Part shown: piece by piece, positions 1,357 to 5,057 of the stretch
Numbering within the stretch: the first letter of the stretch is position 1
Layout of the letters: each line of letters begins with the position of its first letter
Origin: a virus
Lineage: Duplodnaviria > Heunggongvirae > Uroviricota > Caudoviricetes
Length of the DNA: 5,057 nt
Strand: one strand, 5' to 3'
Virus record (IMG/VR): IMGVR_UViG_3300029749_000526
Program-made: the position numbers and the translations under genes
Notes under the pieces: generated by a model
Databases searched by the model: none
The model's input: the letters and a program-made list of their open reading frames with translations, nothing else
What the model was told of the DNA's origin: nothing

Positions 1357-1367
1357 GTGGAGTGGAT

Positions 1368-3764
1368 ATGGCAGCAGTAAAAATCTCAGGTGTGCTGAAA
1401 GATGGTGCGGGAAAACCAATACAGAACTGCACTATTCAACTGAAGGCAAAGCGTAACAGCACCACGGTACTGGTGAACACGGTGGCTTCTGAAAATCCGG
1501 ATGAAGCCGGACGTTACAGCATGGATGTTGAGTATGGCCAGTACAGCGTCACCCTGCTGGTTGAAGGTTTTCCGCCTTCACATGCCGGGACCATTACCGT
1601 CTATGAAGGTTCCAGACCAGGTACGCTGAATGATTTTCTCGGTGCCATGACGGAAGATGATGTCATGCCGGAGGCATTGCGCCGTTTTGAGGCAATGGTG
1701 GAAGAAGCGGCACGCAACGCCGAAGCCGCCTCTCAGAGCGCAGCGGCGGCAAAGAAATCCGAAACTGCAGCGGCATCATCGAAGAACGCGGCGAAAACCT
1801 CAGAAACGAATGCAGCTAACAGCGCACAGGCGGCAGCGGCCTCGCAGACTGCATCGGCAAACTCCGCGACAGCAGCCAAAAAATCAGAAACCAACGCGAA
1901 AAATAGCGAGACAGCCGCAAAGACGAGCGAAACCAACGCAAAGTCCAGCCAGACGGCAGCGAAGACCAGCGAAACGAATGCCAAAGCCAGCGAAACTGCG
2001 GCGAAAAGCAGTCAGGATGCAGCAGCTGAAAGCGAGAGTGCCGCAGCTGGTTCTGCGACTTCAGCAGCTGGATCAGCAACTGCTGCGGCTAACAGCCAGA
2101 AAGCAGCGAAGACGAGCGAAACCAACGCAAAGTCCAGCCAGACGGCAGCGAAGACCAGCGAAACGAATGCCAAAGCCAGCGAAACTGCGGCGAAAAGCAG
2201 TCAGGATGCAGCAGCTGAAAGCGAGAGTGCCGCAGCTGGTTCTGCAAGTGCGGCGGCTGCTTCTGCCACTGCATCAGCAAACAGTCAAAAAGCTGCAAAA
2301 ACCAGTGAAACCAACGCAAAGGCGAGCGAGACTGCGGCGGCTAACTCGGCGCAAGCATCGGCAGCAAGCCAGACAGCAGCTAAAGCAAGTGAAGACGCAG
2401 CCAGAGAGTATGCAAGTCAGGCAGCAGAGCCGTATAAATATGTCTTACAGCCACTGCCTGATGTGTGGATACCGTTTAACGATTCACTGGAAATGATTAC
2501 TGGTTTCGCCCCAGGTTATAAAAAAGTCACTATCGGTGATGATGTTATTACTTTTCCATCAGAGAAGGTTGTATCTTTCACCCGCTCTACTTCTGCAACA
2601 TATATAAACAAATCAGGTTCGTTTACTTTTGCAGAAATTAACGAGCCGCGCTTTGAAAAGGAAGGTTTATTAATTGAAGGTCAGAGGACAAATACATTTA
2701 CTAATAGCAATAATCCTTCATTATGGAACTATGACGACAAGAATATAGAAATAACCACATCGGTTGATGAATATGGTTTTAAATATGGTTTGTTCGATGT
2801 AAAGGAAACATCAACCACTGAAAGGGCGACGATAATATCTACTGGATACAGTAGGGTTATTGATGTTGCTGCAAATGAATCTGTTACCTTGTCCTGTAGG
2901 GTTAAGAAGATAAATGGAGAAGGTATTATAACGTTAAGACCCAGAATATCTTTCGTTAACGATGACGGCACAAGCAACACGCTGGTAGCTGGTTCCTACA
3001 TAGATTGCGAAACTGGTGATGTTTTAGGTTTTTCTGGTGGGGATGCTGTAAATCATGTCATATACAGAGAAGCTAACGGATGGTTACGCGTCGAATTTAC
3101 ATATAAATCACCAGAAGCAAAAAGCATGTATGGGCGCTTTGAAATGGGAGCAGATAAAAGGGCGATCAAAAAAGGCGATCAGATAATGTTTACTACGCCG
3201 CAATTTGAAAAAGGATCGTGTGCATCATCATTTATCGTTACATCAGATGTGGCAGTTACACGGGCTAGTGACGTGGTAATAATGCCAATAAGACTGAACT
3301 GGTCAACACCTCCGTTAAGCGTTCTTATGGAAGTTAATATCAACTGGGACAAAATGCCAAACAGTGAAGGTTCAGCAAGGCTTCTTAACGTGTCAATAAC
3401 TGGCGCAACAACGGATGTTGCTGATGAAAGTTATATGTATTTTGGTTTTACCTCTGGAGGCGCGCGCTCAATTATAACTAACGGAAAAGGAACAAAGACC
3501 GAGTATAAAGCCTACTGTAACAGGACAACCCGCAGGTTTATTGCTGGGTTTAAGTTTACAGAGCAGAAAGAATTGCGTGCTGTTATAAACGGTAACTTTG
3601 GCGCTGTTGGTGTATCACAACACACAAGACAACGTTATACAGAAGGGCCAATAAATATAGGCGGTCAATCAATATCAGGTAACAGGCATTTATTTGGACA
3701 CGTGCGCAATTTACGTATCTGGCATAAGGAACTGACAGATGCACAAATGGGAGAAAGAATATAA
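1368..3764 (+). CDS. stf: Side tail fibre protein (lambda Stf-like N-terminus and repetitive shaft, with a divergent C-terminal distal domain)
   Basis: Long ORF ending at TAA 3762-3764. I place the start at ATG 1368 (GGAG at 1359-1362, 5-nt spacer) rather than the in-frame GTG at 1362 used by the ORF track. The N-terminus (MAAVKISGVLKDGAGKPIQNCTIQLKA…RYSMDVEYGQYSV…GFPPSHAGTITVYE) matches my recollection of the lambda Stf N-terminal region. The central region is Ala/Ser/Thr-rich with reiterated KTSETNAK-type motifs, typical of fibre shafts. The C-terminal ~440 aa are compositionally distinct and not lambda-like. Confidence 0.85.
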   Translation: MAAVKISGVLKDGAGKPIQNCTIQLKAKRNSTTVLVNTVASENPDEAGRYSMDVEYGQYSVTLLVEGFPPSHAGTITVYEGSRPGTLNDFLGAMTEDDVMPEALRRFEAMVEEAARNAEAASQSAAAAKKSETAAASSKNAAKTSETNAANSAQAAAASQTASANSATAAKKSETNAKNSETAAKTSETNAKSSQTAAKTSETNAKASETAAKSSQDAAAESESAAAGSATSAAGSATAAANSQKAAKTSETNAKSSQTAAKTSETNAKASETAAKSSQDAAAESESAAAGSASAAAASATASANSQKAAKTSETNAKASETAAANSAQASAASQTAAKASEDAAREYASQAAEPYKYVLQPLPDVWIPFNDSLEMITGFAPGYKKVTIGDDVITFPSEKVVSFTRSTSATYINKSGSFTFAEINEPRFEKEGLLIEGQRTNTFTNSNNPSLWNYDDKNIEITTSVDEYGFKYGLFDVKETSTTERATIISTGYSRVIDVAANESVTLSCRVKKINGEGIITLRPRISFVNDDGTSNTLVAGSYIDCETGDVLGFSGGDAVNHVIYREANGWLRVEFTYKSPEAKSMYGRFEMGADKRAIKKGDQIMFTTPQFEKGSCASSFIVTSDVAVTRASDVVIMPIRLNWSTPPLSVLMEVNINWDKMPNSEGSARLLNVSITGATTDVADESYMYFGFTSGGARSIITNGKGTKTEYKAYCNRTTRRFIAGFKFTEQKELRAVINGNFGAVGVSQHTRQRYTEGPINIGGQSISGNRHLFGHVRNLRIWHKELTDAQMGERI
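1920..2245 (+). repeat. In-frame tandem direct duplication inside the stf shaft region (two copies of about 137 bp at a 189-bp period)
   Basis: The segment about 1920-2056 (…gacgagcgaaaccaacgcaaagtccagccagacggcagcgaagaccagcgaaacgaatgccaaagccagcgaaactgcggcgaaaagcagtcaggatgcagcagctgaaagcgagagtgccgcagctggttctgc) recurs at about 2109-2245 with apparent nucleotide identity. It encodes AKTSETNAKSSQTAAKTSETNAKASETAAKSSQDAAAESESAAAGSA twice. The 189-bp period equals 63 codons, so frame is preserved. Confidence 0.8.
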
Positions 3765-4045
3765 TGCGAGACTTAACCCTCAAATTCATAAACAAGGCCG
3801 ACTTTTCGGCCTTTATGGATAGCATTGGTTATGAAGATGACGAGGTAATGCAGAACAATGTTCTCATTGATGTGATAGGTAACGTGTACAAAGAAACCGG
3901 AGAACTTACTGAAGATGGCGAACCGGTATGTGTTAAGGAAGACGGATATTTTGTAAACGTGCGCATCATTAATGATGTGAAAACACCGTCAATATTCGAT
4001 GAATACGTGGTTGCTGTTGAGCATCAACTTCGTGGCTGGATGTGA
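3764..4045 (+). CDS. Hypothetical small acidic protein (93 aa), translationally coupled to stf; possible fibre accessory or chaperone protein
   Basis: The ATG at 3764-3766 overlaps the stf TAA stop (ATAATG) by 1 nt. GGGAGA lies upstream at 3749-3754. The ORF ends at TGA 4043-4045. The translation has 19 Asp/Glu against 8 Lys/Arg (estimated net charge about -11). I recognise no family from the sequence alone. Confidence 0.55.
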   Translation: MRDLTLKFINKADFSAFMDSIGYEDDEVMQNNVLIDVIGNVYKETGELTEDGEPVCVKEDGYFVNVRIINDVKTPSIFDEYVVAVEHQLRGWM

Positions 4046-4054
4046 GGGAGACAA

Positions 4055-4756
4055 ATGGCTACATCGACAGTAATTCCAGGAGATATCACCACGCTAAAGG
4101 GAGATGTCAGTAAAACTAAGGAAGATATTTCCTCAATTAACGGAAAAGTATCAACGCTTCAGATTGATATGACCAGTGCAAAGCAGGATATCAGCACCAG
4201 ATACACAAAAACTGAAGTTGATAATAAGCTGAAAAACAAAGTGGAAGCGAACGATCTGGAAAGCGGTCGTTATGGCGGTGATTTTTACCCGCTGACAGGT
4301 CGTGAAGCGTTTTATTTATGGAATTTGGCCACGACTACAGCTGCGGCAAACCTTTATCTTAATCCTGACCCCGCAATTTCGTCTGTTCTGCGGTCAACAT
4401 CGTCTATCCGCTATAAACATTCAGTAGAGACGATAGATTCAGAGCACGCCGATCTCATTTTCAAGATGCGCCCTGTGTGGTACAGGTCGCAATGCGAAAA
4501 TGACAGGCGTGACTGGGGATTCTACGGATTGATTGCCGAGGAAGTAGGAGAAATTGCCCCTCAGTTTGTACACTGGCGACCAGCTAACGAAGATGATGCA
4601 CCGGAAGCTATTTCCAGCAATGGCCTTGTTGCCGAAGGTGTGATGTACGAACGTCTGGTTGTTCCACTGATTCACCATATCCAGAAACTGACAGAAAGAG
4701 TTGATGAACTTGAGTCAGAATTAAAGCTGTTATCAACTTCCCGAAGCGATATCTGA
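4055..4756 (+). CDS. Tail-fibre-like protein with an N-terminal coiled-coil segment and a C-terminal peptidase S74-like intramolecular chaperone domain
   Basis: AGGGAG Shine-Dalgarno at 4045-4050, 4 nt before ATG 4055. The C-terminal ~115 aa (SSIRYKHSVETIDSEHADLIFKMRPVWYRSQ…GFYGLIAEEVGEIAPQFVHW…GLVAEGVMYERLVVPLIHHIQKLTERVDELESELKLL) follow the pattern I recall for the S74 chaperone-of-endosialidase domain (SDxxLKxNI…L+PVxY…GxIAQEVxxxxPElV…, ending in a coiled-coil). The N-terminal ~100 aa (DITTLKGDVSKTKEDISSINGKVSTLQIDMTSAKQDIS…) are heptad-like. Confidence 0.75.
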   Translation: MATSTVIPGDITTLKGDVSKTKEDISSINGKVSTLQIDMTSAKQDISTRYTKTEVDNKLKNKVEANDLESGRYGGDFYPLTGREAFYLWNLATTTAAANLYLNPDPAISSVLRSTSSIRYKHSVETIDSEHADLIFKMRPVWYRSQCENDRRDWGFYGLIAEEVGEIAPQFVHWRPANEDDAPEAISSNGLVAEGVMYERLVVPLIHHIQKLTERVDELESELKLLSTSRSDI

Positions 4757-4769
4757 TAAAGGAGGAGTA

Positions 4770-5057
4770 ATGGATATAAGCCCCTTACTTCATGCGCTTT
4801 GTGCTGTGGCTGCGCAGGTACTGGTTGGTTTTTTTACCGGAAACTGGGCTTACGGGGCGATAGCCGGTTGTACATTCTTCATTGCGCGGGAACACACCCA
4901 GGCAGAATATCGCTGGATTGAAATGTTCGGGCATGGCAAGCGGATTAACATGCCATGGTGGGGCGGTTTTGATCCACGTGCATGGGATGTGGCAAGCCTG
5001 ATGGATTTTGCTGTGCCGGTGGTGGCGTGTCTGCTGATCTGGATGTTGATCCGTTAA
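4770..5057 (+). CDS. Hypothetical small membrane protein (95 aa, 2-3 predicted transmembrane segments); possible moron or superinfection-exclusion candidate
   Basis: Strong Shine-Dalgarno AAAGGAGGA at 4758-4766, 3 nt before ATG 4770. The ORF ends at TAA 5055-5057. Hydrophobic stretches at residues ~5-22 and ~26-39 (PLLHALCAVAAQVLVGFF, WAYGAIAGCTFFIA) and ~74-94 (VASLMDFAVPVVACLLIWMLI) are separated by a charged, Trp-rich loop (REHTQAEYRWIEMFGHGKRINMPWWGGFDPRAW). It starts 13 nt after the preceding gene. Confidence 0.6.
   Translation: MDISPLLHALCAVAAQVLVGFFTGNWAYGAIAGCTFFIAREHTQAEYRWIEMFGHGKRINMPWWGGFDPRAWDVASLMDFAVPVVACLLIWMLIR

What the first reader, a model, noticed from the sequence alone, without database searches (positions are those of the whole stretch)
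4055..4756. Stand-alone S74-like intramolecular-chaperone domain protein with a short coiled-coil N-terminus
S74 chaperone domains are normally the C-terminal, self-cleaving portion of long tail fibres or tailspikes. Here the domain sits in a separate 233-aa protein whose N-terminal ~110 aa are only a heptad-repeat segment. The position matching the canonical Ser-Asp cleavage motif reads S-S-I-R-Y-K, so the Ser and the Lys five residues on are retained but the Asp is replaced by Ser. This could be a very short accessory fibre or whisker matured by autoproteolysis, or a domain acting in trans for the upstream fibre. Either would be an unusual arrangement worth testing.
Basis: partly seen in the sequence, partly recalled or inferred. 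Interest (0 to 1): 0.6.

Follow-up and report, generated by a model that had tools for sequence, protein, structure and literature searches.

The report
Short distal side-tail-fibre subunit
The 233-residue protein really carries a self-cleaving S74 chaperone domain, but it is a common short version of the second, add-on subunit of a multi-part phage side tail fibre, not an odd stand-alone chaperone.

Summary
ORF 4055-4756 encodes 233 aa with a Pfam PF13884 match above threshold (residues 116-172) and the motif T115|S116-S-I-R-Y-K121.

The interpretation mostly does not hold.
- The Ser that replaces Asp follows the catalytic Ser and is not catalytic. 134 of the 142 closest family representatives checked have the same Ser-Ser, long fibres included.
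- Only residues 9-48 are heptad coil. Residues 66-115 are a conserved fibre tip that precedes the same chaperone in over 1,000 fibre families, including one-piece lambdoid side fibres (56-60% identity).
- The gene is the third in a conserved module: proximal fibre, then a 93-aa protein, then a subunit with the N-terminal motif M-A/V-T-x-T-V-I-P-x-D-I. This module occurs in lambdoid, T1-like, T5-like and Nonagvirus phages.
- Longer alleles (346, 351 and 574 aa) occupy the same slot. The 574-aa one is IrisVonRoten Gp24, published as a distal fibre.
- All 119 genes with this motif follow a 93-aa gene. Phage 21-type phages have the fibre and the 93-aa gene but no third gene. This argues against a trans-chaperone role.
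- About 13% of complete E. coli genomes carry the gene, and it is under purifying selection.

Cleavage and docking are inferred, not shown. Interest is low.

The parts
4055..4756 (+). Gene 3 of the fibre module: 233-aa distal fibre subunit with a C-terminal S74 intramolecular chaperone (26.2 kDa precursor).
   Evidence: ORF and translation. PF13884 above threshold. dN/dS 0.13-0.21 against lambdoid and T1-like orthologues. PGAP calls it 'tail fiber domain-containing protein'.
4046..4050 (+). Shine-Dalgarno-like GGGAG, 4 nt before the ATG.
   Evidence: Read directly from the sequence. The N-terminus is conserved from Met1 across phage families.
4055..4102 (+). Residues 1-16, MATSTVIPGDITTLKG: conserved N-terminal motif, the inferred docking peptide.
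   Evidence: Shared with the 346-aa (Tritos), 351-aa (ESCO3, JenP1) and 574-aa (IrisVonRoten Gp24) proteins, which otherwise differ. All 119 such genes lie 9 or 12 nt after a 93-aa-family gene.
4079..4198 (+). Residues 9-48: heptad coiled-coil shaft.
   Evidence: a/d pattern, 0 of 2000 shuffles. AlphaFold2 helix 9-47, pLDDT 78-86. Weak match to the P22 gp26 tail needle coil. Length varies among orthologues.
4250..4399 (+). Residues 66-115: small fibre-tip segment ending at Thr115. This is the predicted cis substrate of the chaperone and the C-terminus of the mature 12.5-kDa product.
   Evidence: The stretch TTTxxANxYxxPxxxxxVxRSTS is conserved just before the chaperone in long fibres. pN/pS 0.22.
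4400..4417 (+). Predicted catalytic motif S116-S-I-R-Y-K121. The predicted scissile bond is Thr115|Ser116.
   Evidence: Codons read. K121 is invariant and S116 at least 90% conserved in 35 homologues. Register matches T5 pb1 T1263|S1264...K1269.
4400..4753 (+). Residues 116-233: S74 intramolecular chaperone domain (13.7 kDa), ending in a heptad helix at 198-230.
   Evidence: AlphaFold2 helix 198-232.
3764..4045 (+). Gene 2: 93-aa protein of unknown function (phrog_1361). Its start overlaps the stf stop (ATGA).
   Evidence: Always directly upstream of dock-type genes. Also present without gene 3.
1368..3764 (+). Gene 1: side tail fibre (Stf). It has a lambda-type N-terminus, an Ala/Ser/Thr-rich repeat shaft, a C-terminal GTA-head-spike-like domain and a LamG-like end. 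It is the inferred platform for gene 3. The start is probably the ATG at 1368 (MAAVKISG), not the GTG at 1362.
   Evidence: PF08400. NF048003 at residues 437-635. PDB 6tb9 E=6e-7. Homologous to phage 21, IrisVonRoten Gp22 and IdasGreatGrand fibres.
4770..5057 (+). Downstream 95-aa membrane protein (phrog_1443), co-oriented. It is probably not part of the fibre.
   Evidence: It follows the 93-aa gene directly in phages that lack gene 3.

Best explanation
The 233-aa protein is the short allele of the distal (add-on) subunit of a multi-part side tail fibre. Three chains are expected to assemble from the C-terminus, as follows.

1. The S74 intramolecular chaperone (residues 116-233) trimerises.
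2. It templates its own small tip (66-115) and coiled-coil shaft (9-60).
3. It cuts itself off at Thr115|Ser116 using the Ser116/Lys121 dyad.
4. The mature trimer of 12.5-kDa chains attaches through its conserved N-terminal 16 residues to the C-terminal platform of the upstream Stf fibre, to the 93-aa protein, or to both.

Shown here: domain identity, motif conservation, homology of residues 38-233 to the ends of one-piece fibres, the conserved gene module, the allelic series, and purifying selection.

Inferred: trimerisation, cleavage, virion incorporation and the docking partner.

Unknown: whether the tiny tip binds a receptor or only caps or stabilises the fibre.
For: (1) S74 domain above the Pfam threshold, with Ser/Lys in the T5 pb1 register.

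(2) Residues 38-233 are 56-60% identical to the C-termini of one-piece lambdoid Stf proteins: P0063 (735 aa) and P0064 (958 aa), each with phage_tail_N, Phage_fiber_2 and S74. 1602 cluster representatives match at E<=1e-10. Nearly all of the 150 best matches listed carry this tip and chaperone at the C-terminal end of proteins of up to 1284 aa. The chaperone therefore has its own cis substrate here.

(3) The first 16 residues are shared with the 346-, 351- and 574-aa proteins in the same slot. Each of these has its own different middle part and its own S74 domain. The 574-aa one is IrisVonRoten Gp24, modelled by its authors as a distal fibre attached to a proximal fibre. That proximal fibre is 40% identical to this Stf (E=3e-127).

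(4) The module is found in four phage groups whose tails otherwise differ. The only shared possible partners are therefore the Stf C-terminal domain and the 93-aa protein.

(5) 119 of 119 dock-type genes in IMG/VR lie 9-12 nt after a 93-aa-family gene. 78 of 78 readable loci next to close 93-aa homologues have a dock-type gene: 37 of about 346 aa and 31 of 227-234 aa.

(6) dN/dS is 0.13-0.21. Every segment is constrained, with pN/pS 0.22-0.54.

(7) Precedent: in DT57C, LtfB is held on the virion through LtfA, and both carry pfam13884.
Against: - There is no experimental or structural evidence for cleavage, trimerisation or attachment of this protein.
- The AlphaFold2 monomer is weak (pLDDT 62; residues 62-122 below 50), and fold searches found only generic helices.
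- After cleavage only about 50 non-coil residues remain, which is small for a receptor-binding domain.
- BASEL annotators called the T1-like orthologue 'putative lateral tail fiber chaperone'.
- Several phage isolates carry disrupted copies (AV105, VSe12, some IMG/VR loci), so the gene is dispensable at least in the laboratory.
- The IMG/VR loci are mostly related E. coli prophages, so the counts are not independent events.
Confidence: 0.62

Rival explanations
1. Structural cap or stabiliser. The protein docks on the proximal fibre as above but has no receptor-binding role. Its job is to complete or stabilise the Stf trimer, so without it the side fibre is unstable.
For: The mature part is tiny and lacks a recognisable binding domain. 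The lambdoid alleles are 91-97% identical while the Stf C-terminal domain next to them is only about 40-58% identical, so specificity seems to lie in Stf. In DT571/2 an ltfB mutant loses all lateral fibres.
Against: Homologous Stf plus 93-aa pairs exist with no third gene at all in phage 21, PhiR49_2, ev017, ev207 and Lambda_4C10 (with 30). Disrupted copies occur in viable phages. The same slot holds alleles with large variable middle parts, which is typical of receptor binding.
Confidence: 0.2
2. Trans-acting chaperone. The S74 domain, delivered by the N-terminal peptide, folds or trimerises the upstream Stf and is not a virion component. This is the reading implied by the annotation 'putative lateral tail fiber chaperone'.
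For: The gene lies where tail-fibre assembly genes usually lie, just after stf. BASEL annotation of PeterMerian and KarlJaspers. LtfA instability without LtfB shows that a second subunit can matter for the first.
Against: The chaperone is preceded in cis by the tip it normally folds, conserved with it as a unit across over 1,000 fibre families. The Stf C-terminus is a beta-sandwich of the GTA-spike/LamG type and folds without this gene in phage 21-type phages. There is no co-variation between the chaperone and the Stf C-terminal domain. There is no similarity to Tfa-type chaperone families. I found no published trans-acting S74 domain.
Confidence: 0.07
3. Recombination relic. The ORF is the leftover 3' end of an older one-piece stf gene displaced by a new cassette, and has no present function.
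For: It is homologous to the last ~190 residues of one-piece Stf proteins and of phrog_3299 (positions 1147-1384 of 1385). A tail-fibre-assembly pseudogene fragment lies downstream in related prophages. Some copies are frameshifted.
Against: It has its own start, ribosome-binding site and a conserved N-terminus that one-piece fibres lack. dN/dS is 0.13-0.21, even between lambdoid and T1-like orthologues that have diverged to 58% identity. It is intact in hundreds of genomes and in lytic phages, which have no room for relics.
Confidence: 0.03

Closest known systems
IrisVonRoten (Bas32, Tequintavirus) lateral fibre: bas32_0022, bas32_0023 and bas32_0024 (Gp22-Gp24), from the BASEL collection papers
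   Same: Same three-gene order. The proximal fibre is 40% identical over the C-terminal ~440 aa. The small protein is 39% identical. The third protein starts MVTKTVIPTDITKLKN and ends in PF13884. Its authors model it as a distal fibre attached to the proximal fibre.
   Different: Gp24 is 574 aa with two large receptor-binding domains and a canonical S-D-S-R-L-K site. The window protein is 233 aa, has only a coil and a ~50-residue tip, and reads S-S-I-R-Y-K.
T5 pb1 L-shaped tail fibre chaperone domain (PDB 4UW7/4UW8) and K1F endosialidase C-terminal chaperone
   Same: C-terminal chaperone of about 120-130 aa, Ser/Lys dyad with Lys five residues after Ser, Thr before the scissile bond, and a trimeric coiled-coil helix at the end.
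   Different: Those domains end very long one-piece proteins. Sequence similarity is only at family level. The upstream 'sensor' Arg/Asp could not be mapped here.
DT57C / DT571/2 LtfA-LtfB branched fibres (PMC4728585; 8hqz_d)
   Same: A second fibre protein is carried on the first, and each has its own pfam13884. LtfA is the best solved-structure sequence match (E=7e-8), has T-S-G-I-E-Y-K at the site, and shares the shaft repeat ...YTKTEVD....
   Different: There the docking region and partner are phiEco32 gp14/gp15-like. There is no 93-aa protein and no GTA-spike-like platform.
One-piece lambdoid side tail fibres ending in the same module (P0063, P0064)
   Same: 56-60% identity over residues 38-233, with the same S-S-x-R-Y-K site.
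   Different: In those the module is fused to the phage_tail_N shaft. Here it is a separate gene with a docking N-terminus.
Lambda Stf-Tfa and Mu-type tail fibre assembly chaperones
   Same: Position immediately downstream of stf.
   Different: No sequence relationship. Tfa acts in trans and binds the fibre tip, whereas S74 domains act in cis and cut themselves off.

Membership tests
Peptidase S74 / intramolecular chaperone of tail fibres and tailspikes (PF13884) | Profile match above the curated threshold | tested here: met
   27.6 bits against a gathering score of 22, E=3.7e-6, residues 116-172 against profile positions 1-57 of 58. Supported by the phmmer match to 8hqz_d and 1602 homologues at E<=1e-10.
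Peptidase S74 / intramolecular chaperone of tail fibres and tailspikes (PF13884) | Catalytic Ser with Lys five residues downstream | tested here: met
   S116 and K121. K121 is invariant and S116 at least 90% conserved in 35 homologues. The register equals T5 pb1 S1264/K1269.
Peptidase S74 / intramolecular chaperone of tail fibres and tailspikes (PF13884) | Asp directly after the catalytic Ser (Pfam consensus) | tested here: not met
   Ser117 instead. This residue is not part of the published mechanism. 134 of 142 close representatives also have Ser and one has Gly. DT57C LtfA has Gly. It is therefore not a defining feature.
Peptidase S74 / intramolecular chaperone of tail fibres and tailspikes (PF13884) | Located at the C-terminus, directly after a fibre segment that it folds in cis | tested here: met
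   The domain spans 116-233 of 233. Residues 66-115 are homologous to the pre-cleavage tip of long fibres.
Peptidase S74 / intramolecular chaperone of tail fibres and tailspikes (PF13884) | Chaperone fold with a central trimeric coiled coil | tested here: inconclusive
Peptidase S74 / intramolecular chaperone of tail fibres and tailspikes (PF13884) | Autoproteolytic release after trimer folding | not testable with these tools
   Needs expression of the wild type and of S116A and K121A mutants. The expected change is 26.2 kDa to 12.5 + 13.7 kDa.
Multi-part lateral/side tail fibre of the IrisVonRoten Gp22-24 type | Gene order: proximal fibre, ~93-aa protein, distal subunit, tightly linked | tested here: met
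   Window 1368-3764, 3764-4045 and 4055-4756, with no terminator between them. The same order is found in L001-L005, L007 and L092.
Multi-part lateral/side tail fibre of the IrisVonRoten Gp22-24 type | Homologous proximal-fibre C-terminal domain and small protein | tested here: met
   E=3e-127 and 40% identity. The small proteins align over their full length at 39% identity.
Multi-part lateral/side tail fibre of the IrisVonRoten Gp22-24 type | Distal subunit begins with the conserved motif M-[AV]-T-x-T-[VIN]-I-P-x-D-I | tested here: met
   119 of 119 such genes follow a 93-aa-family gene.
Multi-part lateral/side tail fibre of the IrisVonRoten Gp22-24 type | Physical attachment of the distal subunit to the proximal fibre | not testable with these tools
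   Only monomer prediction is available. The published support is an AlphaFold-Multimer model of the IrisVonRoten homologues.
Trans-acting tail fibre assembly chaperones (lambda Tfa / Mu gpU type) | Sequence membership in a tail-fibre-assembly family | tested here: not met
   No Pfam, NCBIfam or PHROG match of that kind. All PHROG matches are fibre or tail proteins.

The most novel reading that the evidence does not exclude
The short allele may have lost receptor binding and become an assembly factor. In this reading, an S74-type chaperone is tethered by its N-terminal peptide to the Stf/93-aa platform and nucleates or locks the proximal fibre trimer. It then cleaves itself and leaves only a 12.5-kDa cap. 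This would be the first S74 domain whose useful work is done on another polypeptide. It would also explain why annotators called it a 'lateral tail fiber chaperone'.
Probability: 0.07. Interest if true: 0.6.

Novelty: new member of a known kind. Interest (0 to 1): 0.25.

Why it matters
The matter is mainly one of annotation and phage engineering.

- **Inconsistent naming.** The gene is currently labelled 'hypothetical', 'tail fiber domain-containing protein', 'chaperone of endosialidase' or 'putative lateral tail fiber chaperone'. The evidence here says it is the distal subunit of a three-gene fibre cassette that moves between lambdoid, T1-like, T5-like and Nonagvirus phages.
- **Engineering use.** The 16-residue N-terminal motif plus the 93-aa gene mark a natural plug-in point, where alleles of 233, 346, 351 and 574 aa are exchanged. 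That point could be used to retarget side fibres.
- **Open biology.** It is not known what a distal subunit with almost no binding domain does, nor what the ubiquitous 93-aa protein does.

None of this overturns current understanding of S74 domains.

Tried and rejected
- **AlphaFold2 of the 93-aa protein.** pLDDT was 46.6 with a shallow alignment, so it was not used.
- **Profile search of the PDB.** It reached only 8hqz_d convincingly. MYRF (7dc3) and S16 (6f45) were at E~0.5-0.7.
- **Literature searches.** I looked for a described stand-alone or trans-acting S74 protein and found none. The K1F deep-mutational-scan paper does not discuss the cleavage-site residues. The Sfin-1 proteomics concerns a one-piece fibre.
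- **NCBIfam and Rfam.** NCBIfam gave no match for genes 2-4. Rfam found no RNA family in the window.
- **Phage 'rolling' as a case without gene 3.** I considered this and rejected it, because a dock-type ORF runs off the end of the record.
- **Fused-chain trick for the 93-aa/dock complex.** I considered it and dropped it, because outside sequences are not accepted and a single-sequence model would be meaningless.

Full report
**What is in the window.**
The 5057 bases are the right end of a lambdoid tail operon, all on the + strand:
- the C-terminus of J (13-636, PF12421);
- lom (704-1303, PF06316);
- a side tail fibre gene stf (1362/1368-3764, 800 aa, PF08400 N-terminus);
- a 93-aa gene whose start overlaps the stf stop (3764-4045, phrog_1361);
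- the ORF of the finding (4055-4756, 233 aa);
- a 95-aa membrane-protein gene (4770-5057, phrog_1443).

Terminator-like hairpins follow J and lom, but none lies between stf and the end of the window. The last four genes therefore look like one transcription unit. No Rfam family matches. The segment 3764-4770 that was searched, covering genes 2 and 3, is 100% identical to the chromosome of E. coli AMSCJX02.

**Checking the observation.**
The ORF, its length and the S74 domain are real.
- PF13884 matches residues 116-172 against profile positions 1-57 of 58, with 27.6 bits against a gathering score of 22.
- phmmer against the PDB finds the chaperone end of a 1076-aa T5-like L-shaped fibre, 8hqz_d, at E=7e-8.
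- An exhaustive HMMER search finds 3624 cluster representatives at E<=0.001 and 1602 at E<=1e-10.
- The motif is T115-S116-S117-I-R-Y-K121, codons 4397-4417.

- Only residues 9-48 carry a heptad pattern. Nine of 11 a/d positions are I/L/M/V, and 0 of 2000 shuffles reach this. Residues 63-115 show none. AlphaFold2 agrees, with helices at 9-47 and 52-60 and then non-helical sequence.
- The Asp of the Pfam consensus is not part of the cleavage chemistry. In T5 pb1 the bond cut is Thr1263-Ser1264, Ser1264 is the nucleophile and Lys1269 activates it (PMC4690869). The window protein has exactly this register.

Ser-Ser is the rule in this branch of the family. It occurs in 134 of the 142 best cluster representatives checked, one has Gly, and no motif was found in seven. 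It occurs in proteins of 180-1284 aa. DT57C LtfA reads T-S-G-I-E-Y-K.

**It is a real, constrained gene.**
- Pairwise dN/dS is 0.13-0.21. This includes comparisons between lambdoid and T1-like orthologues that share only about 58% of residues.
- Across 27 distinct alleles, every segment is constrained. pN/pS is 0.24 for the N-terminal motif, 0.54 for the coil, 0.22 for the tip and 0.28 for the chaperone.
- 719 of 5426 complete E. coli genomes carry at least 80% of the 93-aa plus 233-aa gene pair. PGAP names the 233-aa product 'tail fiber domain-containing protein'.

**What the parts are.**
- *Residues 38-233* are 56-60% identical to the C-terminal ends of ordinary one-piece lambdoid side fibres. 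Examples are P0063 (735 aa) and P0064 (958 aa), each with phage_tail_N, Phage_fiber_2 and S74. The PHROG match is to positions 1147-1384 of a 1385-aa family.
- *The stretch before the cleavage site* (TTTAAANLYLNPDPAISSVLRSTS) travels with the chaperone in hundreds of families. The chaperone therefore has its usual cis substrate here.
- *Residues 42-63* resemble the shaft repeat of DT57C LtfA.
- *The first 16 residues*, MATSTVIPGDITTLKG, are new relative to one-piece fibres.

**The genomic module.**
The same three genes, in the same order and tightly spaced, occur in these phage groups:

| Phage group | Example | Third gene |
|---|---|---|
| Lambdoid | IdasGreatGrand | 234 aa |
| Lambdoid | Tritos | 346 aa |
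| Drexlerviridae | PeterMerian, SLUR29 | 231 and 245 aa |
| Nonagvirus | ESCO3, JenP1 | 351 aa |
| Tequintavirus | IrisVonRoten | 574 aa |

- PhiR49_1 (lambdoid) matches the same region at 91% nucleotide identity over 95% of the query. Its locus was not inspected.
- All the third genes begin M-[AV]-T-x-T-[VIN]-I-P-x-D-I-x-x-L-K and end in an S74 domain. They differ completely in between.
- In 80 IMG/VR loci found through the 93-aa protein, all 78 readable ones have such a gene next to it: 37 of about 346 aa and 31 of 227-234 aa.
- A DNA-pattern scan for the N-terminal motif gave 120 loci, of which 119 were usable. In all 119 a 93-aa-family gene ends 9 or 12 nt upstream.
- The reverse does not hold. 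Phage 21 and PhiR49_2 have a homologous Stf C-terminal domain and the small protein, followed directly by the 95-aa membrane gene. The coordinates for ev017, ev207 and Lambda_4C10 show the same.
- The third gene therefore depends on the other two, and not the other way round.

**The upstream fibre.**
- Its C-terminal ~440 residues contain a domain related to the head-spike fibre of the Rhodobacter gene transfer agent (NF048003 at residues 437-635; 6tb9 at E=6e-7).
- They end in a LamG-like motif.
- This region is only about 40-58% identical between phages whose flanking sequences, including the 93-aa and 233-aa genes, are 91-97% identical. It is therefore probably the main variable receptor-binding cassette.

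**Mechanism proposed.**
By analogy with T5 pb1 and the K1F endosialidase (established knowledge), the steps would be:
1. The C-terminal domain trimerises.
2. It templates the tip and coil of its own chain.
3. It cuts at Thr115|Ser116, giving 12.5-kDa and 13.7-kDa products.
4. The mature short trimer docks through its N-terminal peptide on the Stf C-terminal platform, the 93-aa protein, or both.

The docking partner is an inference. Those two proteins are the only components shared by four phage groups with otherwise different tails. Two precedents support the general picture. The BASEL authors modelled the IrisVonRoten homologue as a distal fibre on a proximal fibre with a galectin-like C-terminal domain. 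DT57C LtfB is carried by LtfA. The BASEL 2021 paper also notes that lateral fibres of these phages can be one polypeptide or two or more proteins.

**Rivals.**
- *Pure cap or stabiliser role* (0.2). This is hard to separate from the best reading, because the mature part is so small and the lambdoid alleles are so conserved.
- *Trans-chaperone role* (0.07). This is disfavoured by the cis substrate, by the phages that lack the gene, by the lack of co-variation with Stf, and by the absence of any Tfa-like similarity.
- *Relic* (0.03). This is contradicted by purifying selection and by the gene's own conserved start.

**What did not work.**
Structure prediction was limited to monomers and gave no usable fold comparison for either the 233-aa or the 93-aa protein. 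I found no paper that tests this protein.

**Verdict.**
The domain call is right. The arrangement is common, and it fits a known kind of multi-part fibre. The Ser-for-Asp change is a subfamily trait at a non-catalytic position. This is a new, short member of a known kind, and interest is low (0.25). The open questions are what a nearly domain-less distal subunit does and what the 93-aa protein does.

Noticed in passing
window 1901-2339 (within stf): There is a 189-bp tandem repeat of 2.3 copies at 87% identity, with nested 21- and 42-bp units. It encodes the Ala/Ser/Thr-rich shaft (…KTSETNAKASETAAKSSQDAAAESESAAAGSA…). The IdasGreatGrand Stf is 69 aa shorter (731 against 800 aa), with its alignment gaps falling in this repeat region. 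The shaft length therefore seems to vary by repeat copy number.
   Followed up: partly
window 2470-3764 (Stf C-terminal ~430 aa): This region contains a GTA head-spike-fibre-like domain (NF048003; PDB 6tb9) and a LamG-like end (…GNRHLFGHVRNLRIWHKELTDAQ). It is only about 40-58% identical between phages whose flanking genes are over 90% identical. Homologues occur in lambdoid, T1-like, T5-like, Nonagvirus, Dhillonvirus and rV5-like phages. It looks like a widely exchanged receptor-binding cassette.
   Followed up: partly
window 3764-4045: A 93-aa protein of unknown function (phrog_1361) is translationally coupled to stf (ATGA overlap). Homologues are present in 187 phage records across at least five phage groups, with or without a third gene. 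AlphaFold2 gave no confident fold (pLDDT 46.6). It could be an adaptor or a fibre chaperone.
   Followed up: partly
window 4043-4057; also L001-L007 and the IMG/VR loci: The 93-aa gene and gene 3 are always in the same reading frame, separated by a stop codon plus 9 nt (98 loci) or 12 nt (19 loci). This is probably just inheritance of a short spacer. Stop-codon read-through giving a fusion protein was not examined.
   Followed up: no
L006 4090-4100 (phage AV105); L094 (VSe12); L027, L032, L089: Several copies of the third gene are disrupted. AV105 has one extra C in a run of C (6 against 5 in SLUR29), which splits the gene into 86-aa and 180-aa ORFs. VSe12 and some prophage loci have ORFs truncated to 64-194 aa. 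These are either sequencing errors in homopolymers or real loss, so the gene may be dispensable.
   Followed up: partly
window 4770-5057: A 95-aa predicted membrane protein (phrog_1443; two transmembrane segments according to the phage 21 record) follows the fibre genes in many lambdoid phages, whether or not gene 3 is present. Its function is unknown. Its position suggests a lysogenic-conversion or exclusion role.
   Followed up: no
L010 5815-5924 and L011 6183-6302 (E. coli prophages related to the window): A fragment of a tail fibre assembly (tfa) pseudogene and a broken pin-type recombinase gene lie just beyond the 95-aa gene. This suggests that the three-gene cassette replaced an older stf-tfa invertible module.
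   Followed up: no
window 1362-1370: The mechanical ORF list starts stf at GTG 1362 (MDMAAVK…). The annotated IdasGreatGrand orthologue starts at the ATG equivalent to 1368 (MAAVKISG…).
   Followed up: partly
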